From the IMG/VR virus record IMGVR_UViG_3300018876_000054, positions 1 through 33,781 of that record: DNA of 33,781 nucleotides, one strand, 5' to 3'. Of this stretch, positions 22,803 through 32,524 are shown piece by piece (the stretch's first letter is position 1; each line of letters opens with the position of its first letter). The DNA comes from a virus. Taxonomy: Duplodnaviria > Caudoviricetes. The notes beneath the pieces were generated by a model. That model searched no databases, had not been told where the DNA came from, and saw only the letters and a list, made by a program, of their open reading frames with translations. A program made the translations under genes and the position numbers.

Positions 22803-23231
22803 TCATACAGTGGTAAGTTTAAACCGAAGAACTATAAAAAATACAAAGGAGACCCTACAAAGATATTCTATAGGTCACTTTGGGAACGTAGATTCATGGT
22901 TTATTGCGATAACAACGATAAAATTATTGAATGGGGCAGTGAAACAATAATCATTCCTTATGTATCTCCCGTGGACAAAAGACCTCATAGATACTTTCCC
23001 GACTTCTATATAAAATATGTCAACTCAAAAGGTCAAGTGATTAGAGAAGTCATAGAAGTCAAACCAAAACGACAACTCAGTCCACCCAAAGAACCAAAGA
23101 GAAGAACAAAGAGTTGGTTAAACGAAGTGAGAACTTATATGGTCAATCAAGCAAAGTTCAAAGCTGCAGATGAATACTGTAAGGATAGAAAATACAGTTT
23201 TAGAATATTGACCGAAGACCACCTAACATGA
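22800..23231 (+). CDS. gp4: Head completion protein gp4 (TnsA-like nuclease fold)
   Basis: 'YSGKFKPKNYKKYKGDPTKIFYRSLWERRFMVYCD', 'HRYFPDF', 'IEVKP', 'NQAKFKAA'. Confidence 0.95.
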   Translation: MSYSGKFKPKNYKKYKGDPTKIFYRSLWERRFMVYCDNNDKIIEWGSETIIIPYVSPVDKRPHRYFPDFYIKYVNSKGQVIREVIEVKPKRQLSPPKEPKRRTKSWLNEVRTYMVNQAKFKAADEYCKDRKYSFRILTEDHLT

Positions 23232-23851
23232 AAAAACTAATTGCATTTGATTTAGATGGAGTTTTAATCAACTCCATTAAGAATATGGAACACTCATGGA
23301 GTGTAGTATGTTCTCAACATAACATTAATGTCCCCTTTTCCGAATATAAAAAAGGTATAGGAAAACCATTCTTTGATATACTGGACGAGTTAGGACTAAC
23401 TGACTCACAACAACAAATCAAAAATACTTATGATGAAGCATCAAACATGATTCTTGACGAAGTTGAGATATATGAGGGTGCAATTGAAACACTTGAAGAG
23501 ATAAAACGAAAAGGATACAAGATTGCAATATGCACATCGAAGGATATAACAAGAGTTAAGAAGGTTATTGCAAGTCTTATACTAGACGGAAAGAAATTTC
23601 CTAAGTTTGATTACGTCTGTTCACCTAAACAAGGTCTTAGAGGAAAACCTGCCCCTGACCAACTACTAAATACTATCGCATTCTGTAATGTAGACCCACA
23701 CGAAACATACTATGTGGGTGATATGGAATCAGATATGTATTGTGCAAACAGAGCAGGTGTAGATTTTATACATGCAGAATATGGTTATGGAGAAGTTGAG
23801 TGCGAAGTCTCAGTGAAGTCGATAAAAAATCTAATCTCGTTGTTGGATTAA
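23228..23851 (+). CDS. HAD-superfamily phosphatase (phosphoglycolate-phosphatase-like, cap type I)
   Basis: Motif I 'FDLDGVL', motif II 'CTSK', motif III 'KPAPD', motif IV 'VGDMESD'. Confidence 0.9.
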   Translation: MKKLIAFDLDGVLINSIKNMEHSWSVVCSQHNINVPFSEYKKGIGKPFFDILDELGLTDSQQQIKNTYDEASNMILDEVEIYEGAIETLEEIKRKGYKIAICTSKDITRVKKVIASLILDGKKFPKFDYVCSPKQGLRGKPAPDQLLNTIAFCNVDPHETYYVGDMESDMYCANRAGVDFIHAEYGYGEVECEVSVKSIKNLISLLD

Positions 23852-24528
23852 TACCAGCAAGGTGGAAATCCACACGATTTGAAGGTAAACCCCTTGAACT
23901 TATAAATGGTATACCCATGATTCAAAGGGTTTACAATCAAGCAAGTCTTGCAGAGACACTAGACACGATTGTTGTTTTGACGGATGACCATCGCATCTCC
24001 ACATATTGTTCGCAAAATCAAATTAGATGCATTGTAATTGACACTGAGTGTCGAACTGGAACTGATAGATGTGCAAAAGTATTAGATTTGATTGATGGTC
24101 ATACCTTTGTAAACATACAAGGTGACGAACCAATCATTGACCCTGAGAATATTGATGCAGTTGTCCGTGGATTGGATGATAATTTTAGTGTATCGAATGC
24201 ATACACTAGGATACAAGAAGATTTTAAGTCGTTTGATGAGAATGTTGTGAAGGTTTCACTCGGAAAAGACAACACAGCACTCTATTATTCACGAAAAAAC
24301 ATAAGTGAGTATCAACAATTGGGTCTTTACGCATTCAAAAGACACATGTTAGGTCTATTTCCCAACTTAATAGTAGGTAAAAACGAAAAAAGAGAGAAAG
24401 TAGAGATGTTAAGATACGTTGAGAACGGTTTTTATGTTAAAATGATTGAAGTAAACGATGCTGGACTCTCTGTAGATACTCCCCAAGACCTAAAACGAGT
24501 GGAAAAATATCTAAATGCTTTACATTAA
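23800..24528 (+). CDS. kdsB: 3-deoxy-manno-octulosonate cytidylyltransferase (CMP-Kdo synthetase)-like
   Basis: 'IPARWKSTRFEGKPL', 'TGTDR', 'VNIQGDEP', 'VKV', 'ALYYSR', 'GLYAF', 'EKVEMLR', 'SVDTPQDL'. GTG start with GGAG at 23789-23792. Confidence 0.9.
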   Translation: MRSLSEVDKKSNLVVGLIPARWKSTRFEGKPLELINGIPMIQRVYNQASLAETLDTIVVLTDDHRISTYCSQNQIRCIVIDTECRTGTDRCAKVLDLIDGHTFVNIQGDEPIIDPENIDAVVRGLDDNFSVSNAYTRIQEDFKSFDENVVKVSLGKDNTALYYSRKNISEYQQLGLYAFKRHMLGLFPNLIVGKNEKREKVEMLRYVENGFYVKMIEVNDAGLSVDTPQDLKRVEKYLNALH

Positions 24529-25291
24529 CAAAAATAACCTCTATCCACTTAAAACTCAGTTCTATGAAGTGTGTCAAGTGTCACAACCAAAGATAATTAC
24601 ACTTGGTGAAGCGAAAAACAAAAATTTCATACCTCCAAGATTCTTTCAGGTCAACGAAACTGGTTATTGGAGTTGTCATATGTTAAAACACATAGACATA
24701 GAACCTGTAACTGCAAAAACTTTTGGTGTTTTAGGTGGAGAACAACCACACGTCCATATGTTTCAAGCAATCAAGTTAATGTATCTTATACACTGTTTCA
24801 ATACAGTCGGATTTTATTCATTACCTCAAGCAATACTCAAAGATACTGGTGTATGGAAAGTCCATCCAGGCACTGTAAGAGTTAAAGTAAGTATACACAC
24901 TGAAACTTACGACCAAAAGTTTATCTTTTGGGATAAAGATAATCTAATAGATTCTCCAGTCATGTCTTTTGATGAATGGTGGGGTGTGTTTAAAGATGTT
25001 CCACGAAGAATGTGGACTGATAAACTAGAAAACATTTTAGAATTACATGTTGAAGAAGATAGAGAAGATTATTATGAATGGAATGAAAGTGTTCCATCCA
25101 TGTATGGATACAAACGTCCCTACTATCACGGTTCTGTTCCTGAAGAACTAAAAGATTGTTTCTCGGAATCACCTGATGTGCCTGTGCATGTCGAAGGTGA
25201 TATTAAAAACAACATGAAACACTTCCTAGATTTCAATCCAGTCAACAAATACTTTGAAAATGATAACATAAAAATCTATTGTAAAGTATAA
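24515..25291 (+). CDS. Hypothetical protein, translationally coupled to kdsB
   Basis: 258-aa ORF overlapping the end of kdsB. No confident family; 'VHPGTVR' weakly recalls the ParB/Srx-type GxxR motif. Confidence 0.7.
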   Translation: MLYINKNNLYPLKTQFYEVCQVSQPKIITLGEAKNKNFIPPRFFQVNETGYWSCHMLKHIDIEPVTAKTFGVLGGEQPHVHMFQAIKLMYLIHCFNTVGFYSLPQAILKDTGVWKVHPGTVRVKVSIHTETYDQKFIFWDKDNLIDSPVMSFDEWWGVFKDVPRRMWTDKLENILELHVEEDREDYYEWNESVPSMYGYKRPYYHGSVPEELKDCFSESPDVPVHVEGDIKNNMKHFLDFNPVNKYFENDNIKIYCKV

Positions 25292-28027: not shown

Positions 28028-30232
28028 ATGGCAGATGACGACATACGTAAACAACGGGAAGACCTTGCTAAAGAAATAAAGGACGTTGCAGATAAATTAA
28101 AACCTAAGTTTAGAAAACTTATCAAGAATATCGAAGATGCAAATGCTCCATTAGCAAAACAAGTTGCTGATATAAGAGAAGCGAGTAAAGGAACGTATGC
28201 TGGAACTCTGCAGGCACAAAAACTAGCAAATGTTGGAGGGATAATTAGTGATTACATTAAAGACCTCGACACTTCCCTAGACACTAGTCAATTAGACCAA
28301 CTCCAAAAAGTTTTGGGTGAAGAGTTTGACCTAGAAGGTTTTAGAGAATCATCTGTCAAAGTAAAACAATACGAAGAAGCAGTAATCGCTGCAACCGATG
28401 CCAGAGCAGAAAGACTTGCAATTGCAGAGAAGAAAGAAAATGCACTGGGTCAAATGGATGCTCAAATTGCAGACTTGAAAGAGAAACAAATGGAGCTCGA
28501 TGGTAAGGCTCTTGTCAATGCAACAAAAGCACTCAAAGAAGCAGAAGAAGCAAGAGAAAAGAAGAAGAAAGATATTCTTGCTGGTTTCGATAGAGAACTT
28601 GAAGAAGCAAATTCTTTACTTGAAAAAGAAACAAAAACACGTAAAGAATACAATGATGAAATCAATACTAAGTTTAAAGAGTTATCAGATGATGCTGGTA
28701 AACTTGGAGTATTCTCAGACGGTCTTAAAAAACTCACTGGTTTTGACATCATGGGTCTTGCAGATGGTGTTGTCGAATCTGTCAATGCATTTGGTAAGGT
28801 TGTTTCTTTAGGTAAGAATCAAGATTTAGCAGGTGATATACTTGCTGGTTTCCAAAGTTTACCTGATAAATTTAAAGGAGTAACAGAGGGAATCGGTAAA
28901 GGAATTTCTAATTTAGGTGAAGGAATGGGTGATGGTTTAAAATCACTCAAAGGTGGTATTGCTGGATTAGGTAAAGGTATTAGAAAAACTGCCTCAGGTA
29001 TGATGGCGAGTGCAAAATCTGTGGGTGGTAAGTTCATAGGAATCCTTGGAAAAGGTGCAAAAATGCTTGGTGGATTTGTCAAAGGACTCGCAAGAGGATT
29101 TATGGCTGCAGGTAAAGCACTTATGGCCGCAATCACTCCATTCATAGCTGCAGCTGCAGCATTTGTCGGTGGATTACTTATGACAGCAGGTTCTATGTTA
29201 TTGGCTGCAGCTCCATACATTGCAATAGGTGTTGGTATTCTCGCAGCCGCATACATGATGTATAAAGCATTTATGTATCTCTATGAAAACGTAGAGGGGT
29301 TCAGAGGATACATCGATACTGTTGTTGGTTTTATTATGAACATAGGTCAATCACTTTTTGATATCTTCTTAGGATTTAAAGATATGATTGTGGGTATCTT
29401 CACTGGTGACTTTGATATGGTCATGGAAGGACTCAAAGGTATCTTTGGTGGTCTATGGGATTTACTCCTCGCACCGTTTAAGGCAATCGGTGACTTCTTT
29501 AAGAATGTATTTGACATAGACATCGGTAAGATGTTAAAAGACTTTGCAAAAAAGATTCTGCCTGGATGGTTAGTTAAAAGATTATTTGGTGATGAAAGTT
29601 CAGAACCCGACTCAGCACCTAAGGCCGCACAAAGAGCTCTCGAAGACGAGGACACTCAAGGACTCATCAACAGAAGAAAAGCAAGAGAATCGATGGCTGA
29701 CAAAGCACAATCTATAATCGATAACCGTGAAACGGAAATAAATCGTGCTATGCAAGGGTCTATTGAAGTTAACGGTAGAATGTTAGAAGGTGATGAGAAG
29801 AGAGCATATCTAGAGAAACAAGCAGATACGGGTAGATTTGATATAGACAAAGATGGTAGAGGTATAACTACTGAACAACTTCGAAATATCAAAGATAGAC
29901 AAGATTTCAAAGCCATGGAAATCCAAGGCGAGTTAGACACTAGAAGAGACTATCTTAAGAAAGGTGAATACGGTGACTTCACTATTGAAGAAGACATTAC
30001 AGGTTATGGTGAAGACGTTAAGGTTTATGAAGACACTGGCGATAGAGTTAAGACTGCAAGAGAAATGAAAGAAGAAGCAACTAAAGGTATGGATACGGGA
30101 ATGGTAAACTCTGTAGTTAATCAAGTAAACAATAACACTTCTCAAAACAATAACACTACAATGTCGGGAACTCCAACTGCAAGTGACCCTGATAGCGGTA
30201 GTAAATTAGCAGGTGTTCCTGCTTTTGGTTAA
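28028..30232 (+). CDS. Tail tape measure protein (gp29 equivalent)
   Basis: 734 aa, helical and coiled-coil, with a Gly/Ala-rich hydrophobic middle (transmembrane-like), periodic Phe/Trp repeats and an Asn-rich C-terminus ('VNQVNNNTSQNNNTT'). Lies downstream of gp26/gp51. Confidence 0.8.
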   Translation: MADDDIRKQREDLAKEIKDVADKLKPKFRKLIKNIEDANAPLAKQVADIREASKGTYAGTLQAQKLANVGGIISDYIKDLDTSLDTSQLDQLQKVLGEEFDLEGFRESSVKVKQYEEAVIAATDARAERLAIAEKKENALGQMDAQIADLKEKQMELDGKALVNATKALKEAEEAREKKKKDILAGFDRELEEANSLLEKETKTRKEYNDEINTKFKELSDDAGKLGVFSDGLKKLTGFDIMGLADGVVESVNAFGKVVSLGKNQDLAGDILAGFQSLPDKFKGVTEGIGKGISNLGEGMGDGLKSLKGGIAGLGKGIRKTASGMMASAKSVGGKFIGILGKGAKMLGGFVKGLARGFMAAGKALMAAITPFIAAAAAFVGGLLMTAGSMLLAAAPYIAIGVGILAAAYMMYKAFMYLYENVEGFRGYIDTVVGFIMNIGQSLFDIFLGFKDMIVGIFTGDFDMVMEGLKGIFGGLWDLLLAPFKAIGDFFKNVFDIDIGKMLKDFAKKILPGWLVKRLFGDESSEPDSAPKAAQRALEDEDTQGLINRRKARESMADKAQSIIDNRETEINRAMQGSIEVNGRMLEGDEKRAYLEKQADTGRFDIDKDGRGITTEQLRNIKDRQDFKAMEIQGELDTRRDYLKKGEYGDFTIEEDITGYGEDVKVYEDTGDRVKTAREMKEEATKGMDTGMVNSVVNQVNNNTSQNNNTTMSGTPTASDPDSGSKLAGVPAFG

Positions 30233-30432
30233 TCTAACTTATCGTAGTATTTCGATTTTCTAGTATATTTTGTTTTGTCCGAATGGACTTTTGATACACC
30301 ATGTTTAGGTGTTATGACTCGGGTCTTAATTTTAGGTTCAGGTTTGCCAAAGATTTTCTCCCAATTATCTGAGTAGAGTTCTTCGTTTGAGTTCCTTCTT
30401 TTAGAACCCTTTCCACCATGCCAATTACTCAT
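30229..30432 (-). CDS. Small basic protein coupled to bS21 (ArfA-like motifs, tentative)
   Basis: 67 aa; ATGA overlap with the bS21 stop; 'GGKGSKRR...NWEKIFG' and '[15 protein letters not shown]'. Confidence 0.7.
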
Positions 30433-30662
30433 CTTACTTTTCTATAACCCTTGTTTTGTGATTTAAGTAAATCTAATTTCTTACGTCTCTTCAGTCTTTG
30501 ATTCTTCTCGTTACGAATCGTTGCTGGTTTGATGTAATATTTCCTATCTCTAACTTCTTGGACAATCCCAGCACGTTCACACGACTTCTTAAACCTTCTC
30601 AACATCCTGTCGAAAGGTTCTACTTGGTTTGTCTTTTTGTTTTTTCTAGGTGTTACTTCCAT
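30429..30662 (-). CDS. rpsU: Phage-encoded 30S ribosomal protein bS21
   Basis: '[36 protein letters not shown]' matches the bS21 signature. SD AAGGA upstream. Confidence 0.93.
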
Positions 30663-30679
30663 AATATAATCCTTTAAAA

Positions 30680-30845
30680 TAAGTGTTAAGTCGCCCCGTC
30701 ACTTTACAGCATTCCCGCTCTTAACCGATATTCCCGCCTTGACCCCGAATATCTTTCCCTTACTGAGTATCCCCAATTCCTCGACCTCAGTTTGATGATG
30801 ACCATGACACGGACACATTATGTATATCATCATCCCCGAATACCG
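30680..30845 (-). ncRNA. Candidate structured G-rich RNA between gp32 and rpsU
   Basis: Four consecutive inverted-repeat stems with G-rich loops and repeated GGA/GGGG motifs, in the longest non-coding gap of the window. Confidence 0.55.
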
Positions 30846-30848
30846 AAG

Positions 30849-31748
30849 TTAGTCTTGTGCTAACTTCTTGAAGTAATCCATCGCATCGTCATCCTCGGAA
30901 CTACTTAGGGATGCTTCTGCTGATGAGATTACAGGTTCTTCTGCAACAGTCTCTTTGTTTACGTCTGACCATGGCACTTCGTCAAGGTCTTCTGCAACTG
31001 ATTCTGCAGTAGAATTACTTACACTTCCAGTCAATCCTAACACTCTATCGAGTTTCTCTTTGAGTTCCTCGTAAGTTTTGAATTCACTAGGTGCAATTAC
31101 ATCTGACAAAGAATGAACTGAATTGTAGATTGTATTTAGTTTTTCCTCGTCATCGAACAATGGTGCGATACTATCGAACTCTGATTTATCATAGTTCCAG
31201 TAACCGTCCACTTTTCTGATTTTGATTTTGAAGTTCGCACCTTCCCTTAAATCAAAAGGATTGATTGCTTGTTCATCTTCAAAGGCAGGTGAGATAGCCT
31301 CTTTGAGTTGTTCAAAGATTTTTTTACCATATCTATACTTGAACACTTTACCTTCGTTGTCGGGATTCTTTGGGTCTGAAACAACATAGACGTTAGAAAC
31401 ATAATGCAATCTGCGTTTTTGTTTCCTTGCGATTTCTTTGTTTGCTTCAATACCAGTATTCCACAACTGAGTATTGTATTCTGACACTGGGTCTTTTTTG
31501 TTAAGAGTAGTCAAAGACTTCTCAATATACCAACCACCTGGCCCTTGGAACCCGTGGTCGAAGTAAGATACCCATGGCATTTCTTCACCCTCAGGTGTAG
31601 GCAAGAACCTTACTACTGCATAACCGTTGCCAGTTTTATCCAACTCGGGTTTCCACATAGTATCGTCTTGGTATGATTTTTTTGCACCTTCGGATGAAGG
31701 TGATGCAGACTCCATTGCCTGTCTTAATTTATCTAATGATGTTGACAT
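30849..31748 (-). CDS. gp32: Single-stranded DNA-binding protein gp32
   Basis: 'WKPELDKTGNGYAVVRFLP', 'HGFQGPGGWYIEKSLTT', 'YGKKIF', 'GANFKIKIRKVDGYWNYDKSEF', acidic tail 'DDDAMDYFKKLA'. Confidence 0.97.
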   Translation of the reverse strand: MSTSLDKLRQAMESASPSSEGAKKSYQDDTMWKPELDKTGNGYAVVRFLPTPEGEEMPWVSYFDHGFQGPGGWYIEKSLTTLNKKDPVSEYNTQLWNTGIEANKEIARKQKRRLHYVSNVYVVSDPKNPDNEGKVFKYRYGKKIFEQLKEAISPAFEDEQAINPFDLREGANFKIKIRKVDGYWNYDKSEFDSIAPLFDDEEKLNTIYNSVHSLSDVIAPSEFKTYEELKEKLDRVLGLTGSVSNSTAESVAEDLDEVPWSDVNKETVAEEPVISSAEASLSSSEDDDAMDYFKKLAQD

Positions 31749-31786: not shown

Positions 31787-32524
31787 TTATAATTCAGATT
31801 CTAGACCTAAACCTAGAACCCATCTATCTTCGATATTGAATCGAGACATAATACTATTATACTCGATTTTATCGAATCCATCAATGGGGTTTTTGAAAAA
31901 AACTTCCACTTTTGGATACTCTTTATTTATGTATTCTAGGAGTGCGATGAATTGTGCTTTTTGCACTTTTCCAACTGCCTGAATACTTCCATAGTTCTCT
32001 CTATAGTTGTATTGTCCTTGGAATACATTATTGAGTTCGTCAAACTGTAGTGAGTCATAACCCACTAAACATATCTTCTCATATCCATGATGAACTGCAT
32101 AACCTAAGGCATACATTCCTGATAAGAGATTCTTAAATGTAGGATGAGGATATGTTATAATGTTTTCACTATACTGATTATTATATCCAGTAAAGTAAAA
32201 CTTACCGTCTTGTTGTCCTGTTGTAAGTTCTGATTGTGCAACGAATGAATTACACTCTTCATCACGATACACTTCGATGGGTAAATGAACACCCATCATC
32301 ATCATGTCCATTGCTTCGATTGGTAATTCATTCCATTCACCAACAGACACTTTATTAGTTTTATAATATCCCGACTTTATAATTTCATGTTGAGGCCATA
32401 CGTCACCACAAAAAACTATGTCGGGAGTGTGAGTAGTGTAAATCATATTGAATCCCCACCACTCAGGTAAAGATTCTAAATCAACATTCTGTCTTGATGG
32501 GCCGTTACCAACTAAGTAGAGCAT
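31787..32524 (-). CDS. Putative CMP-ulosonate-dependent glycosyltransferase (GT42 CstII / Maf-MptE-like fold)
   Basis: N-terminal 'LVGNGPS' and later 'SGMYALGYAVHHGYEKICLVGYD' parallel the CstII-type motifs GNGPS and SG..M...A...GYK.IYL.G.D. Confidence 0.6.
   Translation of the reverse strand: MLYLVGNGPSRQNVDLESLPEWWGFNMIYTTHTPDIVFCGDVWPQHEIIKSGYYKTNKVSVGEWNELPIEAMDMMMMGVHLPIEVYRDEECNSFVAQSELTTGQQDGKFYFTGYNNQYSENIITYPHPTFKNLLSGMYALGYAVHHGYEKICLVGYDSLQFDELNNVFQGQYNYRENYGSIQAVGKVQKAQFIALLEYINKEYPKVEVFFKNPIDGFDKIEYNSIMSRFNIEDRWVLGLGLESEL

What the first reader, a model, noticed from the sequence alone, without database searches (positions are those of the whole stretch)
30229..30848. Candidate phage translation-control module: structured RNA + bS21 + ArfA-like peptide
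Seen: directly downstream of gp32 and on the same strand lie a multi-hairpin G-rich element, rpsU and a translationally coupled small basic gene. Established: bS21 sits beside the anti-SD/mRNA exit region of the 30S subunit, and phage-encoded bS21 is known in aquatic phages; ArfA occupies the mRNA entry channel of stalled ribosomes. Inference: the three parts may act together to reprogram or rescue host ribosomes. I do not know of this three-part arrangement being described as a unit, but could not search for it.
Basis: partly seen in the sequence, partly recalled or inferred. Interest (0 to 1): 0.8.

Follow-up and report, generated by a model that had tools for sequence, protein, structure and literature searches.

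The report
G-rich phage RNA beside ribosomal gene
A group of ocean viruses that infect bacteria carries a small folded RNA, matching no catalogued family, whose hairpins hold runs of guanines in fixed unpaired positions; it often sits next to a borrowed ribosomal-protein gene but seems to work on its own rather than as one unit with it.

Summary
In detail: gp32, a multi-hairpin G-rich element, bS21 and a coupled 67-aa basic ORF lie in that order on the minus strand of a marine T4-like phage.

The element is a conserved structured RNA. It has no Rfam match, 17 of 27 pairs change on both sides in relatives, and it follows gp32 in 49 of 49 close relatives. A sister clade has a divergent homologue with its own T4 late promoter (31 of 31), often with no gene behind it, down to about 90 nt; there bS21 lies about 2.5 kb upstream. 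The universal core keeps four unpaired G tracts of the form G-(0-1 nt)-GG, which suggests a bulged G-quadruplex (inferred, not shown).

The three-part module is not fixed. The window's exact order occurs in 24 of 47 close relatives, other genes insert between the parts, and three cultured bS21 phages lack the RNA. The peptide fails ArfA tests (0 of 108 homologues hit PF03889) and carries a DUF7230-type tail.

Best reading: an uncatalogued late phage RNA that acts in trans, beside an insertion slot. A ribosome link is possible but has no direct support.

The parts
30849..31748 (-). gp32 single-stranded DNA-binding protein gene; the constant 5' neighbour of the RNA
   Evidence: PF08804 and phrog_224. 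gp32 lies upstream in 116 of 120 hits of an RNA-only pattern.
30845..30867 (-). P0: 8-bp hairpin that covers the gp32 stop codon; possible processing or pause site at the RNA's 5' end (inferred)
   Evidence: A hairpin crossing the stop is predicted in 36 of 37 distinct close relatives; coordinates.
30680..30840 (-). Conserved structured non-coding RNA, about 160 nt; ends not mapped
   Evidence: Covariation; models R1 and R2 cross-detect the two clades; no Rfam match; held in RNA libraries of 4 studies.
30794..30837 (-). 5' GGGG run and hairpin P1 (variable sequence; loop often GUGUC); lost in some relatives
   Evidence: Folds from different sequences; absent in L046 and L055.
30762..30791 (-). 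Hairpin P2; its loop opens with G-A-GG (30779-30782) and closes with GGG (30772-30774)
   Evidence: 5 of 9 pairs change on both sides; tract census.
30754..30761 (-). Single-stranded junction with GGG (30757-30759); G-N-GG in the sister clade. Start of the universal core.
   Evidence: Invariant columns in alignments A1, A2 and A7.
30727..30753 (-). Hairpin P3 with GCGG in its loop (30734-30737)
   Evidence: 6 of 7 pairs change on both sides; GCGG invariant in A7.
30685..30725 (-). Hairpin P4: a C-G pair flanked by two unpaired GGG tracts (30714-30716 and 30695-30697), an inner hairpin, then a U-rich tail
   Evidence: 100% paired, 6 of 8 pairs change on both sides; the inner part is 4 to 29 nt long while the tracts stay.
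30670..30674 (-). Ordinary Shine-Dalgarno-like AAGGA, 7 nt before the bS21 start
   Evidence: Sequence.
30429..30662 (-). Phage bS21 (rpsU), 77 aa
   Evidence: PF01165 over its cut-off and phrog_21469.
30229..30432 (-). 67-aa basic, mostly unfolded phage peptide: a widespread N-terminal module (GKGS...NW.KIFG) plus a DUF7230-type tail; not ArfA by sequence
   Evidence: 158 homologues; 1026 clusters; DUF7230 below its cut-off in 13 of 60 members, ArfA in none; model pTM 0.27 with short helices only.
28028..30232 (+). Convergent tape-measure-like gene; its stop codon overlaps the peptide's stop
   Evidence: phrog_58, E 7e-5; ORF list.

Best explanation
The element is a structured non-coding RNA that belongs to the 3' side of gp32 in one clade of marine T4-like phages, not a leader of bS21 (fold and position shown). 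In the sister clade it is made from its own T4 late promoter (promoter shown, transcription inferred). In the window's clade it is most likely the 3' tail of the gp32 message, trimmed or protected as a stable piece (inferred). Its helices hold four universal unpaired G tracts (junction, P3 loop, two in P4) that probably stack into a three-layer, bulge-tolerant G-quadruplex (inferred). That would give a compact, nuclease-resistant RNA that acts in trans late in infection as a decoy or ligand for a host G-rich-RNA-binding factor (inferred). The small ribosomal subunit is the most concrete candidate, but the target is not shown. bS21 and the peptide sit in an insertion slot between the replication operon and the convergent tail genes and are expressed by read-through or by their own promoters.
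For: Covariation in both clades; G-U outnumber A-C 79 to 3 at paired columns, which points to this strand. In gp32-selected sister-clade loci with downstream sequence, 31 of 31 have the RNA with an exact TATAAATA 6-32 nt after the gp32 stop; the same octamer precedes late genes in the window. 7 of 9 distinct late-promoter elements have no ORF of 35 aa or more within 200 nt behind them. A roughly 90-nt form exists (L521-L524). When a gene inserts, the RNA stays with gp32. Every observed change in a core tract keeps three G: junction GGG versus GAGG, GCGG or GTGG; P4 5' tract GGG versus GAGG in 3 of 41 gp32-selected elements. GGG runs are 3.2 per 100 nt against 0.22 in gp32, CCC runs 0.04, so the tracts have no partners inside the RNA. 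GGA is not kept.
Against: No late promoter lies upstream of the element in the window or its clade. RNA contigs run continuously from gp32 into the element, so a free RNA is not shown here. ViennaRNA with the quadruplex option predicts none in the window element, although it does not model helices nested between tracts. Invariant G columns cannot covary, so the quadruplex rests on pattern only. The counts used patterns that contain some of the tracts; only searches are gp32-selected. No target, ligand or host is identified. Every clade member with enough sequence also has bS21, so a link to it is not excluded.
Confidence: 0.42

Rival explanations
1. Cis-acting 3' end device: the hairpins and G-rich core end or protect the gp32 transcript and insulate it from the convergent tail operon. 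It is an elaborate terminator or exonuclease block, not a trans-acting RNA.
For: Always directly 3' of gp32. P4 is followed by a U-rich tail in most relatives. In four RNA runs no deep contig continues beyond P4 into bS21 (weak). Phages without the RNA have a simple hairpin with a U run at this place (by eye).
Against: A late promoter sits between the gp32 stop and the RNA in 31 of 31 sister-clade loci, which a gp32 3' cap would not need. Invariant unpaired G tracts and four to five helices far exceed a terminator. The identical contig stop at 30701 is explained by a 30-mer shared between relatives.
Confidence: 0.25
2. The first reader's module: RNA, bS21 and peptide act together on host ribosomes. 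The G tracts engage the anti-Shine-Dalgarno region beside phage bS21 and the basic peptide enters the mRNA channel like ArfA.
For: All clade members with enough sequence carry both RNA and bS21 (47 of 47, and 23 of 23 with enough upstream sequence). bS21 occupies two different positions yet stays within about 3 kb of the RNA. The junction reads as a Shine-Dalgarno-like motif in both clades (duplex -5.3 and -6.3 kcal/mol with a recalled canonical 16S end). Short peptide variants in the same slot line up collinearly with ArfA's tail by eye. A true ArfA-domain gene is reported in pelagiphage HTVC027P (PMC12753301, passage).
Against: The exact order occurs in 24 of 47. bS21 without the RNA in 3 of 3 cultured phages and in L308. 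No peptide within 3 kb in 31 of 31 sister-clade loci, and about 60 kb away in G010. ArfA: 0 of 60 and 0 of 48 Pfam hits; hhalign probability 0.8% and 1.4%. GCGG and GUAGG variants pair poorly with the anti-SD. There is a single origin on the tree.
Confidence: 0.13
3. 5' leader that regulates translation of bS21 (autoregulation or a ribosome-loading structure).
For: bS21 directly follows the RNA in 36 of 49 close relatives, usually 20-40 nt after P4, and many of these starts lack a clear Shine-Dalgarno motif.
Against: A methyltransferase-like gene takes the same place in 13 of 49. Of 110 distinct elements, 9 have a sigma-70-like promoter and 3 a TATAAATA between the RNA and the next start. In the sister clade bS21 is upstream and often nothing follows the RNA.
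Confidence: 0.1
4. The G-rich transcript stays hybridised to its template as an R-loop and primes replication or marks a packaging start, in the manner of T4 transcription-dependent origins or ColE1 RNA II (analogy from my own knowledge).
For: A promoter followed by a G-rich, C-poor transcript beside the SSB gene; one copy per genome in 5 of 5 long contigs.
Against: The G tracts are held inside folded hairpins whose pairing is conserved. The promoter is of the late class. No whole genome was at hand to test skew (G000 is only the window).
Confidence: 0.08

Closest known systems
Phage-encoded bS21 (PMC9723584: abstract, passages and section 14; PMC7029224: passages)
   Same: A bS21 gene in an aquatic T4-like phage; late expression is reported for the freshwater phages.
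   Different: Those reports place bS21 near capsid and terminase genes or in no fixed cluster. In the parts I read they mention no structured RNA ('non-coding' and 'intergenic': 0 occurrences in PMC9723584). Here it sits in the gp33-gp59-gp32 region.
ArfA, alternative ribosome-rescue factor A (PF03889)
   Same: Small, basic, largely unfolded; contains GKGS; tail pattern K.K..Y.RK.K.
   Different: No profile match. GKGS is at the N-terminus instead of inside the tail. It has a normal stop codon and no hydrophobic C-terminal extension. The N-terminal module belongs to a different, widespread phage family.
DUF7230 (PF23876) / phrog_2701
   Same: The peptide's last 20 residues match weakly; a homologue (P0380) carries the full domain at E 4e-6.
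   Different: The window protein is below the cut-off and has only the C-terminal half, fused to another module; function unknown.
Candidate structured RNAs upstream of gp32 (PMC10690425: passages; supplement files 3 and 5 searched)
   Same: Conserved phage RNA structures next to gp32 in IMG/VR.
   Different: Those lie 5' of gp32, this one 3'. No candidate is listed within 25 bp upstream of a Ribosomal_S21 gene. Their alignments could not be read, so a piece of this RNA may be among their unnamed candidates.
CsrB / RsmY / RsmZ protein-sponge sRNAs
   Same: Works-like comparison: a multi-hairpin small RNA with repeated G-rich single-stranded motifs.
   Different: GGA is not conserved (GGGT, GGGC, GGCA, GGGTT variants); no Rfam match.
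Bacterial RNA G-quadruplexes (review PMC8191793, passages)
   Same: G tracts with bulges and long loops are tolerated forms.
   Different: The described bacterial cases lie in coding regions and such structures are reported as depleted in bacteria. I found no conserved phage non-coding RNA family built on one.

Membership tests
bS21 | PF01165 above the curated cut-off | tested here: met
   48.6 bits against 27.
bS21 | Incorporation into host 30S subunits | not testable with these tools
   Needs ribosome proteomics or cryo-EM.
ArfA | PF03889 match | tested here: not met
   None for P0001, 0 of 60 and 0 of 48 homologues, 0 of 4 short variants; none in the own genome at E 10 while E. coli rings.
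ArfA | Profile or solved-structure similarity to E. coli ArfA | tested here: not met
   hhalign 0.1%, 0.8% and 1.4% (the ArfA alignment is shallow, enterobacterial only); no ArfA chain in the PDB sequence searches; one Atlas cluster with 34% ArfA at 0.81, a lead only.
ArfA | KGKGS inside the basic C-terminal channel-binding tail (motif; role recalled) | tested here: not met
   The tail lacks the GKGS insert; GKGS is at residues 7-10.
ArfA | Made from a non-stop message, full-length form with a hydrophobic tail (recalled) | tested here: not met
   In-frame stop after 67 codons and polar C-termini across homologues; message processing itself not tested.
ArfA | Recruits RF2 to non-stop ribosomes | not testable with these tools
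   Needs an in vitro release assay.
DUF7230 | PF23876 above its cut-off over the whole domain | tested here: inconclusive
   15 bits against 27 for P0001, C-half only; 13 of 60 members weak; one homologue passes.
Any Rfam 15 family | Covariance-model score at the gathering threshold | tested here: not met
   0 hits in the window, two chance hits at E 7-10, 0 in 5 sister-clade loci.
tRNA / tmRNA | ARAGORN call | tested here: not met
   0 genes in the window.
CsrB/Rsm sponge sRNA | Repeated GGA kept in loops | tested here: not met
   The base after GG varies at the junction and in P4.
RNA G-quadruplex | Four or more unpaired tracts of three G, bulges allowed | tested here: met
   Four universal tracts; 5 to 7 per element.
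RNA G-quadruplex | Potassium-dependent tetrad formation | not testable with these tools
   The energy model predicts none; needs experiment.
T4 late-promoter transcript | TATAAATA just upstream | tested here: not met
   Absent before the window's element; met in 31 of 31 sister-clade loci.

The most novel reading that the evidence does not exclude
A phage non-coding RNA built on a helix-scaffolded, bulged G-quadruplex binds host 30S subunits carrying the phage bS21, while a remote ArfA-like peptide occupies the mRNA channel; together they redirect or rescue host ribosomes late in infection. A weaker form, a conserved G-quadruplex-core phage RNA family whatever its target, has about 0.45 probability.
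Probability: 0.1. Interest if true: 0.92.

Novelty: categorically new. Interest (0 to 1): 0.66.

Why it matters
A covariation-supported RNA family with a minimal form of about 90 nt and its own late promoter can be tested directly in vitro. If its invariant G tracts form a quadruplex, it would be a conserved natural G-quadruplex RNA in a bacterial setting where such structures are reported to be depleted (PMC8191793, passage). It also gives a handle on the open question of what phage bS21 does. The clade offers natural variants (bS21 before or after the RNA, own leaderless-type promoter, inserted genes) with which to separate a true partnership from mere neighbourhood. The rating 'categorically new' refers to the RNA; bS21 is known and the three-part module is not established.

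Tried and rejected
Single-sequence folding: no signal (z -0.35; core z -1.2).

The 44-aa ORF 30699-30833 as a gene: no Pfam or PHROG hit. Core length falls in all three frames across relatives, and 67 of 95 have no ORF of 40 aa starting there. Rejected.

Identical RNA-contig end at 30701 in three studies as a mapped 3' end: explained by a 30-mer shared by relatives with different flanks. Low contig depth over bS21 (2-3 against 29-49 in X1 and X2; no bS21 piece listed for X6 and X7) cannot rank genes. No DNA run was laid.

Host identification: the GTDB scan gave only 39-62% matches to unrelated groups and the protein search gave phage-type records without hosts. A gammaproteobacterial host is my inference from the best hits, not established.

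Cultured phages: no match for the peptide and only chance matches for the RNA.

Plain MAFFT alignment of both clades misaligned the core and was not used. A hand-typed structure was off register and was redone. Model R2 gave one noise hit of 17.8 bits in E. coli DNA, so scores under about 20 bits are not evidence.

Kissing-loop ideas (P1 loop GUC with GGA or GGCA) lack covariation and P1 is dispensable; not pursued.

Full report
SETTING. The window is a fragment of a T4-like phage: baseplate and tail genes, then gp33, gp59 and gp32 on the minus strand. The own 'genome' is only the window, 18% complete. The RNA libraries that hold it are marine, aquatic or salt-marsh. The nearest cultured phages by gp32 are Melnitz, HTVC008M and cyanophages, at 50-60% identity. 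The host is not identified.

OBSERVATION. gp32 (30849-31748), a 186-nt gap, bS21 (30429-30662) and a 67-aa basic ORF (30229-30432, 4-nt overlap with bS21) follow each other on the minus strand. The gap has no Rfam or tRNA/tmRNA match and alone folds no better than shuffles.

THE ELEMENT IS A CONSERVED STRUCTURE. In 46 aligned elements RNAalifold predicts P2, P3 and P4, with 17 of 24 pairs changed on both sides. On 31 core sequences my 27-pair structure is 96% paired, with 17 pairs changed on both sides, 0 of 500 shuffles reaching the score, and 31-37% paired for slid controls (relatedness inflates the shuffle test). G-U pairs outnumber A-C 79 to 3, pointing to the gp32 strand (the structure was derived on that strand). 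P1 folds from unrelated sequences. A further hairpin covers the gp32 stop codon in 36 of 37 distinct relatives.

IT BELONGS TO gp32, NOT TO bS21. Of 120 RNA-pattern hits, 116 have gp32 just upstream. Three others are not matched by model R1 and one is cut by a contig end. Among the 49 gp32-selected close loci with downstream DNA (73-89% identity; near-duplicates included), all 49 match R1. bS21 is next in 36, and a DNA methyltransferase-like ORF (label from my reading of the sequence) is next in 13. bS21 is found in 47; the other two contigs end within 400 nt. The peptide is found in 44 of 47: coupled to bS21 in 29, separated by a membrane ORF, a GAPDH-like gene or others in 13, start unresolved in 2. 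The remaining 3 carry a shorter relative. The window's exact order occurs in 24 of 47. Of 110 distinct elements, 9 have a sigma-70-like promoter between RNA and bS21 (7 of them with the -10 box 6 nt before the ATG, i.e. leaderless by inference) and 3 have TATAAATA there.

A SISTER CLADE SHOWS AN INDEPENDENT RNA. R1 weakly hit phages with gp32 at 56-63% identity. A scan with one of these gp32 proteins (best 80 of 597) gave 31 loci of that clade with downstream DNA. All 31 carry the element, and all 31 have an exact TATAAATA 6-32 nt after the gp32 stop. bS21 lies about 2.3-2.9 kb upstream, between gp33 and gp59, in the 23 with enough sequence, and none has the peptide within 3 kb. Three other loci of this clade have the peptide directly behind the RNA (L293, L294, L297). 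In 7 of 9 distinct late-promoter elements no ORF follows within 200 nt. Their structure is 92% paired with 15 of 33 pairs changed on both sides, and the model built from them finds the window element at E 3e-5. L521-L524 hold a form of about 90 nt. None of the 45 more distant gp32 loci of that scan has the pattern (a few have under 110 nt downstream). In a tree of 64 dereplicated gp32 proteins all RNA-bearing tips form one clade with support 1.0 (the two tips labelled 'none' inside it match R1 at 79 and 90 bits). There is one copy per genome in 5 of 5 long contigs. HTVC008M, Mosig and Melnitz-3 encode bS21 (3 of 3) but not the RNA (0 of 3, model R2 only). L308 has gp32 and bS21 without it.

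WHAT IS CONSERVED INSIDE. Stems vary freely; the unpaired G tracts do not. Four are universal: the junction before P3, GCGG in the P3 loop, and two tracts stacked on the closing C-G pair of P4. In 41 distinct gp32-selected elements the pattern census gave P2 5' tract 41, junction 40, P2 3' tract 39, P3 38 and P4 5' GGG 38. The printed misses are one pattern artefact, one true loss of the P2 3' tract, and three elements with GAGG instead of GGG in P4. The junction is GGG in the window's clade and GAGG, GCGG or GTGG in the sister clade; the P2 5' tract is GTGG, GAGG, GCGG, GTAGG or GAAGG. So changes add a bulge but keep three G. The RNA has almost no CCC runs. This is what a three-layer quadruplex with bulges would require; bulged and long-loop forms are recognised (PMC8191793, passage). 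It fits GGA-binding sponges or anti-SD pairing less well. It remains inference: the energy model does not predict it, and invariant columns carry no covariation.

EXPRESSION. In 4 of 4 RNA runs from four studies, contigs of 302-375 nt with 1-4 differences cover the element and the 3' part of gp32. These are assembled contigs: they show presence in RNA libraries, not strand, ends or level. Their common stop at 30701 coincides with a 30-mer shared between relatives.

THE PEPTIDE. It has 158 close homologues and 1026 clusters at E 0.001, most of the 150 listed matching only the N-terminal module. The tail is DUF7230-type. It is predicted to be mostly extended. It fails ArfA tests: Pfam 0 of 60, 0 of 48 and 0 of 4, hhalign at most 1.4%, no PDB hit. 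What remains is a collinear look-alike between short variants and ArfA's tail without the GKGS insert and an Atlas lead at 0.81. 'Works like ArfA' stays open at perhaps 0.2; 'is ArfA' is not supported.

MECHANISM. Shown: fold, position, late promoter in one clade, independence from the downstream gene. Inferred: a stable RNA with a quadruplex-on-helix core that acts in trans late in infection as a decoy or ligand (0.42).

LITERATURE. Searches returned no paper describing this RNA or the arrangement; the library lacks most subscription papers. I read passages of PMC9723584 (also abstract and section 14), PMC7029224, PMC12753301, PMC8191793, PMC10931766, PMC12320835 and PMC10690425. In the last, the table of candidates within 25 bp upstream of genes has no S21 entry, but its alignment and diagram files could not be read, so a fragment may already be listed there without a name. 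Earlier scan notes gave nothing by place or sequence and one untested note of a hairpin-dense spacer after gene 32 in another T4-like phage.

VERDICT. Observation confirmed; interpretation partly supported. The valuable part is the uncatalogued RNA, not a fixed three-part module.

Noticed in passing
L011, L013, L055, L067, L120, L268, L269, L279, L286, L287 (between P4 and the bS21 start): A sigma-70-like promoter whose -10 box ends 6-8 nt before the bS21 ATG, i.e. a probably leaderless phage bS21 message; it might be read preferentially by ribosomes lacking bS21 (inference).
   Followed up: partly
window 30845-30867 and 36 of 37 relatives: A hairpin that buries the gp32 stop codon; its downstream arm tracks sequence changes in the coding arm.
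   Followed up: partly
L053:1374-2255, L099:1263-2144, L061:1367-2263 and others: A 293-298 aa DNA methyltransferase-like gene inserted between the RNA and bS21 in scattered members of the clade.
   Followed up: partly
L268, L284, L147 (after bS21): A GAPDH-like gene inserted between bS21 and the peptide; a 39-58 aa membrane-anchored basic ORF occupies that place in others (L243, L073, L278).
   Followed up: no
L259:3142-3300, L273:3174-3326, L024:2900-3055, L016:1069-1218: Shorter peptide variants whose middle (LF.KDSPF..K...K) resembles the DPLFRQR stretch of ArfA more than the window peptide does; not significant (hhalign 1.4%).
   Followed up: yes
L046:2088-2221, L055:2086-2221: Natural deletion variants lacking P1 and the P2 3' G tract but keeping the four core tracts; both have their own bS21 promoter.
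   Followed up: partly
L337, L395, L359 (upstream of gp33): An IscU/NifU-like iron-sulfur scaffold gene next to gp33 and bS21 in the sister clade (label from my reading of the sequence).
   Followed up: no
window 30229-30232 and 30208-30223: The stop codons of the peptide and of the convergent tape-measure-like gene share one TTAA; a terminator-like hairpin lies just inside the tape-measure gene.
   Followed up: no
window 23228-25291 (+) and 31787-32524 (-): A HAD hydrolase, a cytidylyltransferase and an unknown ORF between gp4 and gp2, and a weakly sialyltransferase-like gene before gp32: a possible sugar-modification set.
   Followed up: no
L035-L038: Another T4-like group has a similar bS21 behind a sigma-70-like promoter and before a uvsX-like gene, with no RNA match in the fetched flanks.
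   Followed up: partly
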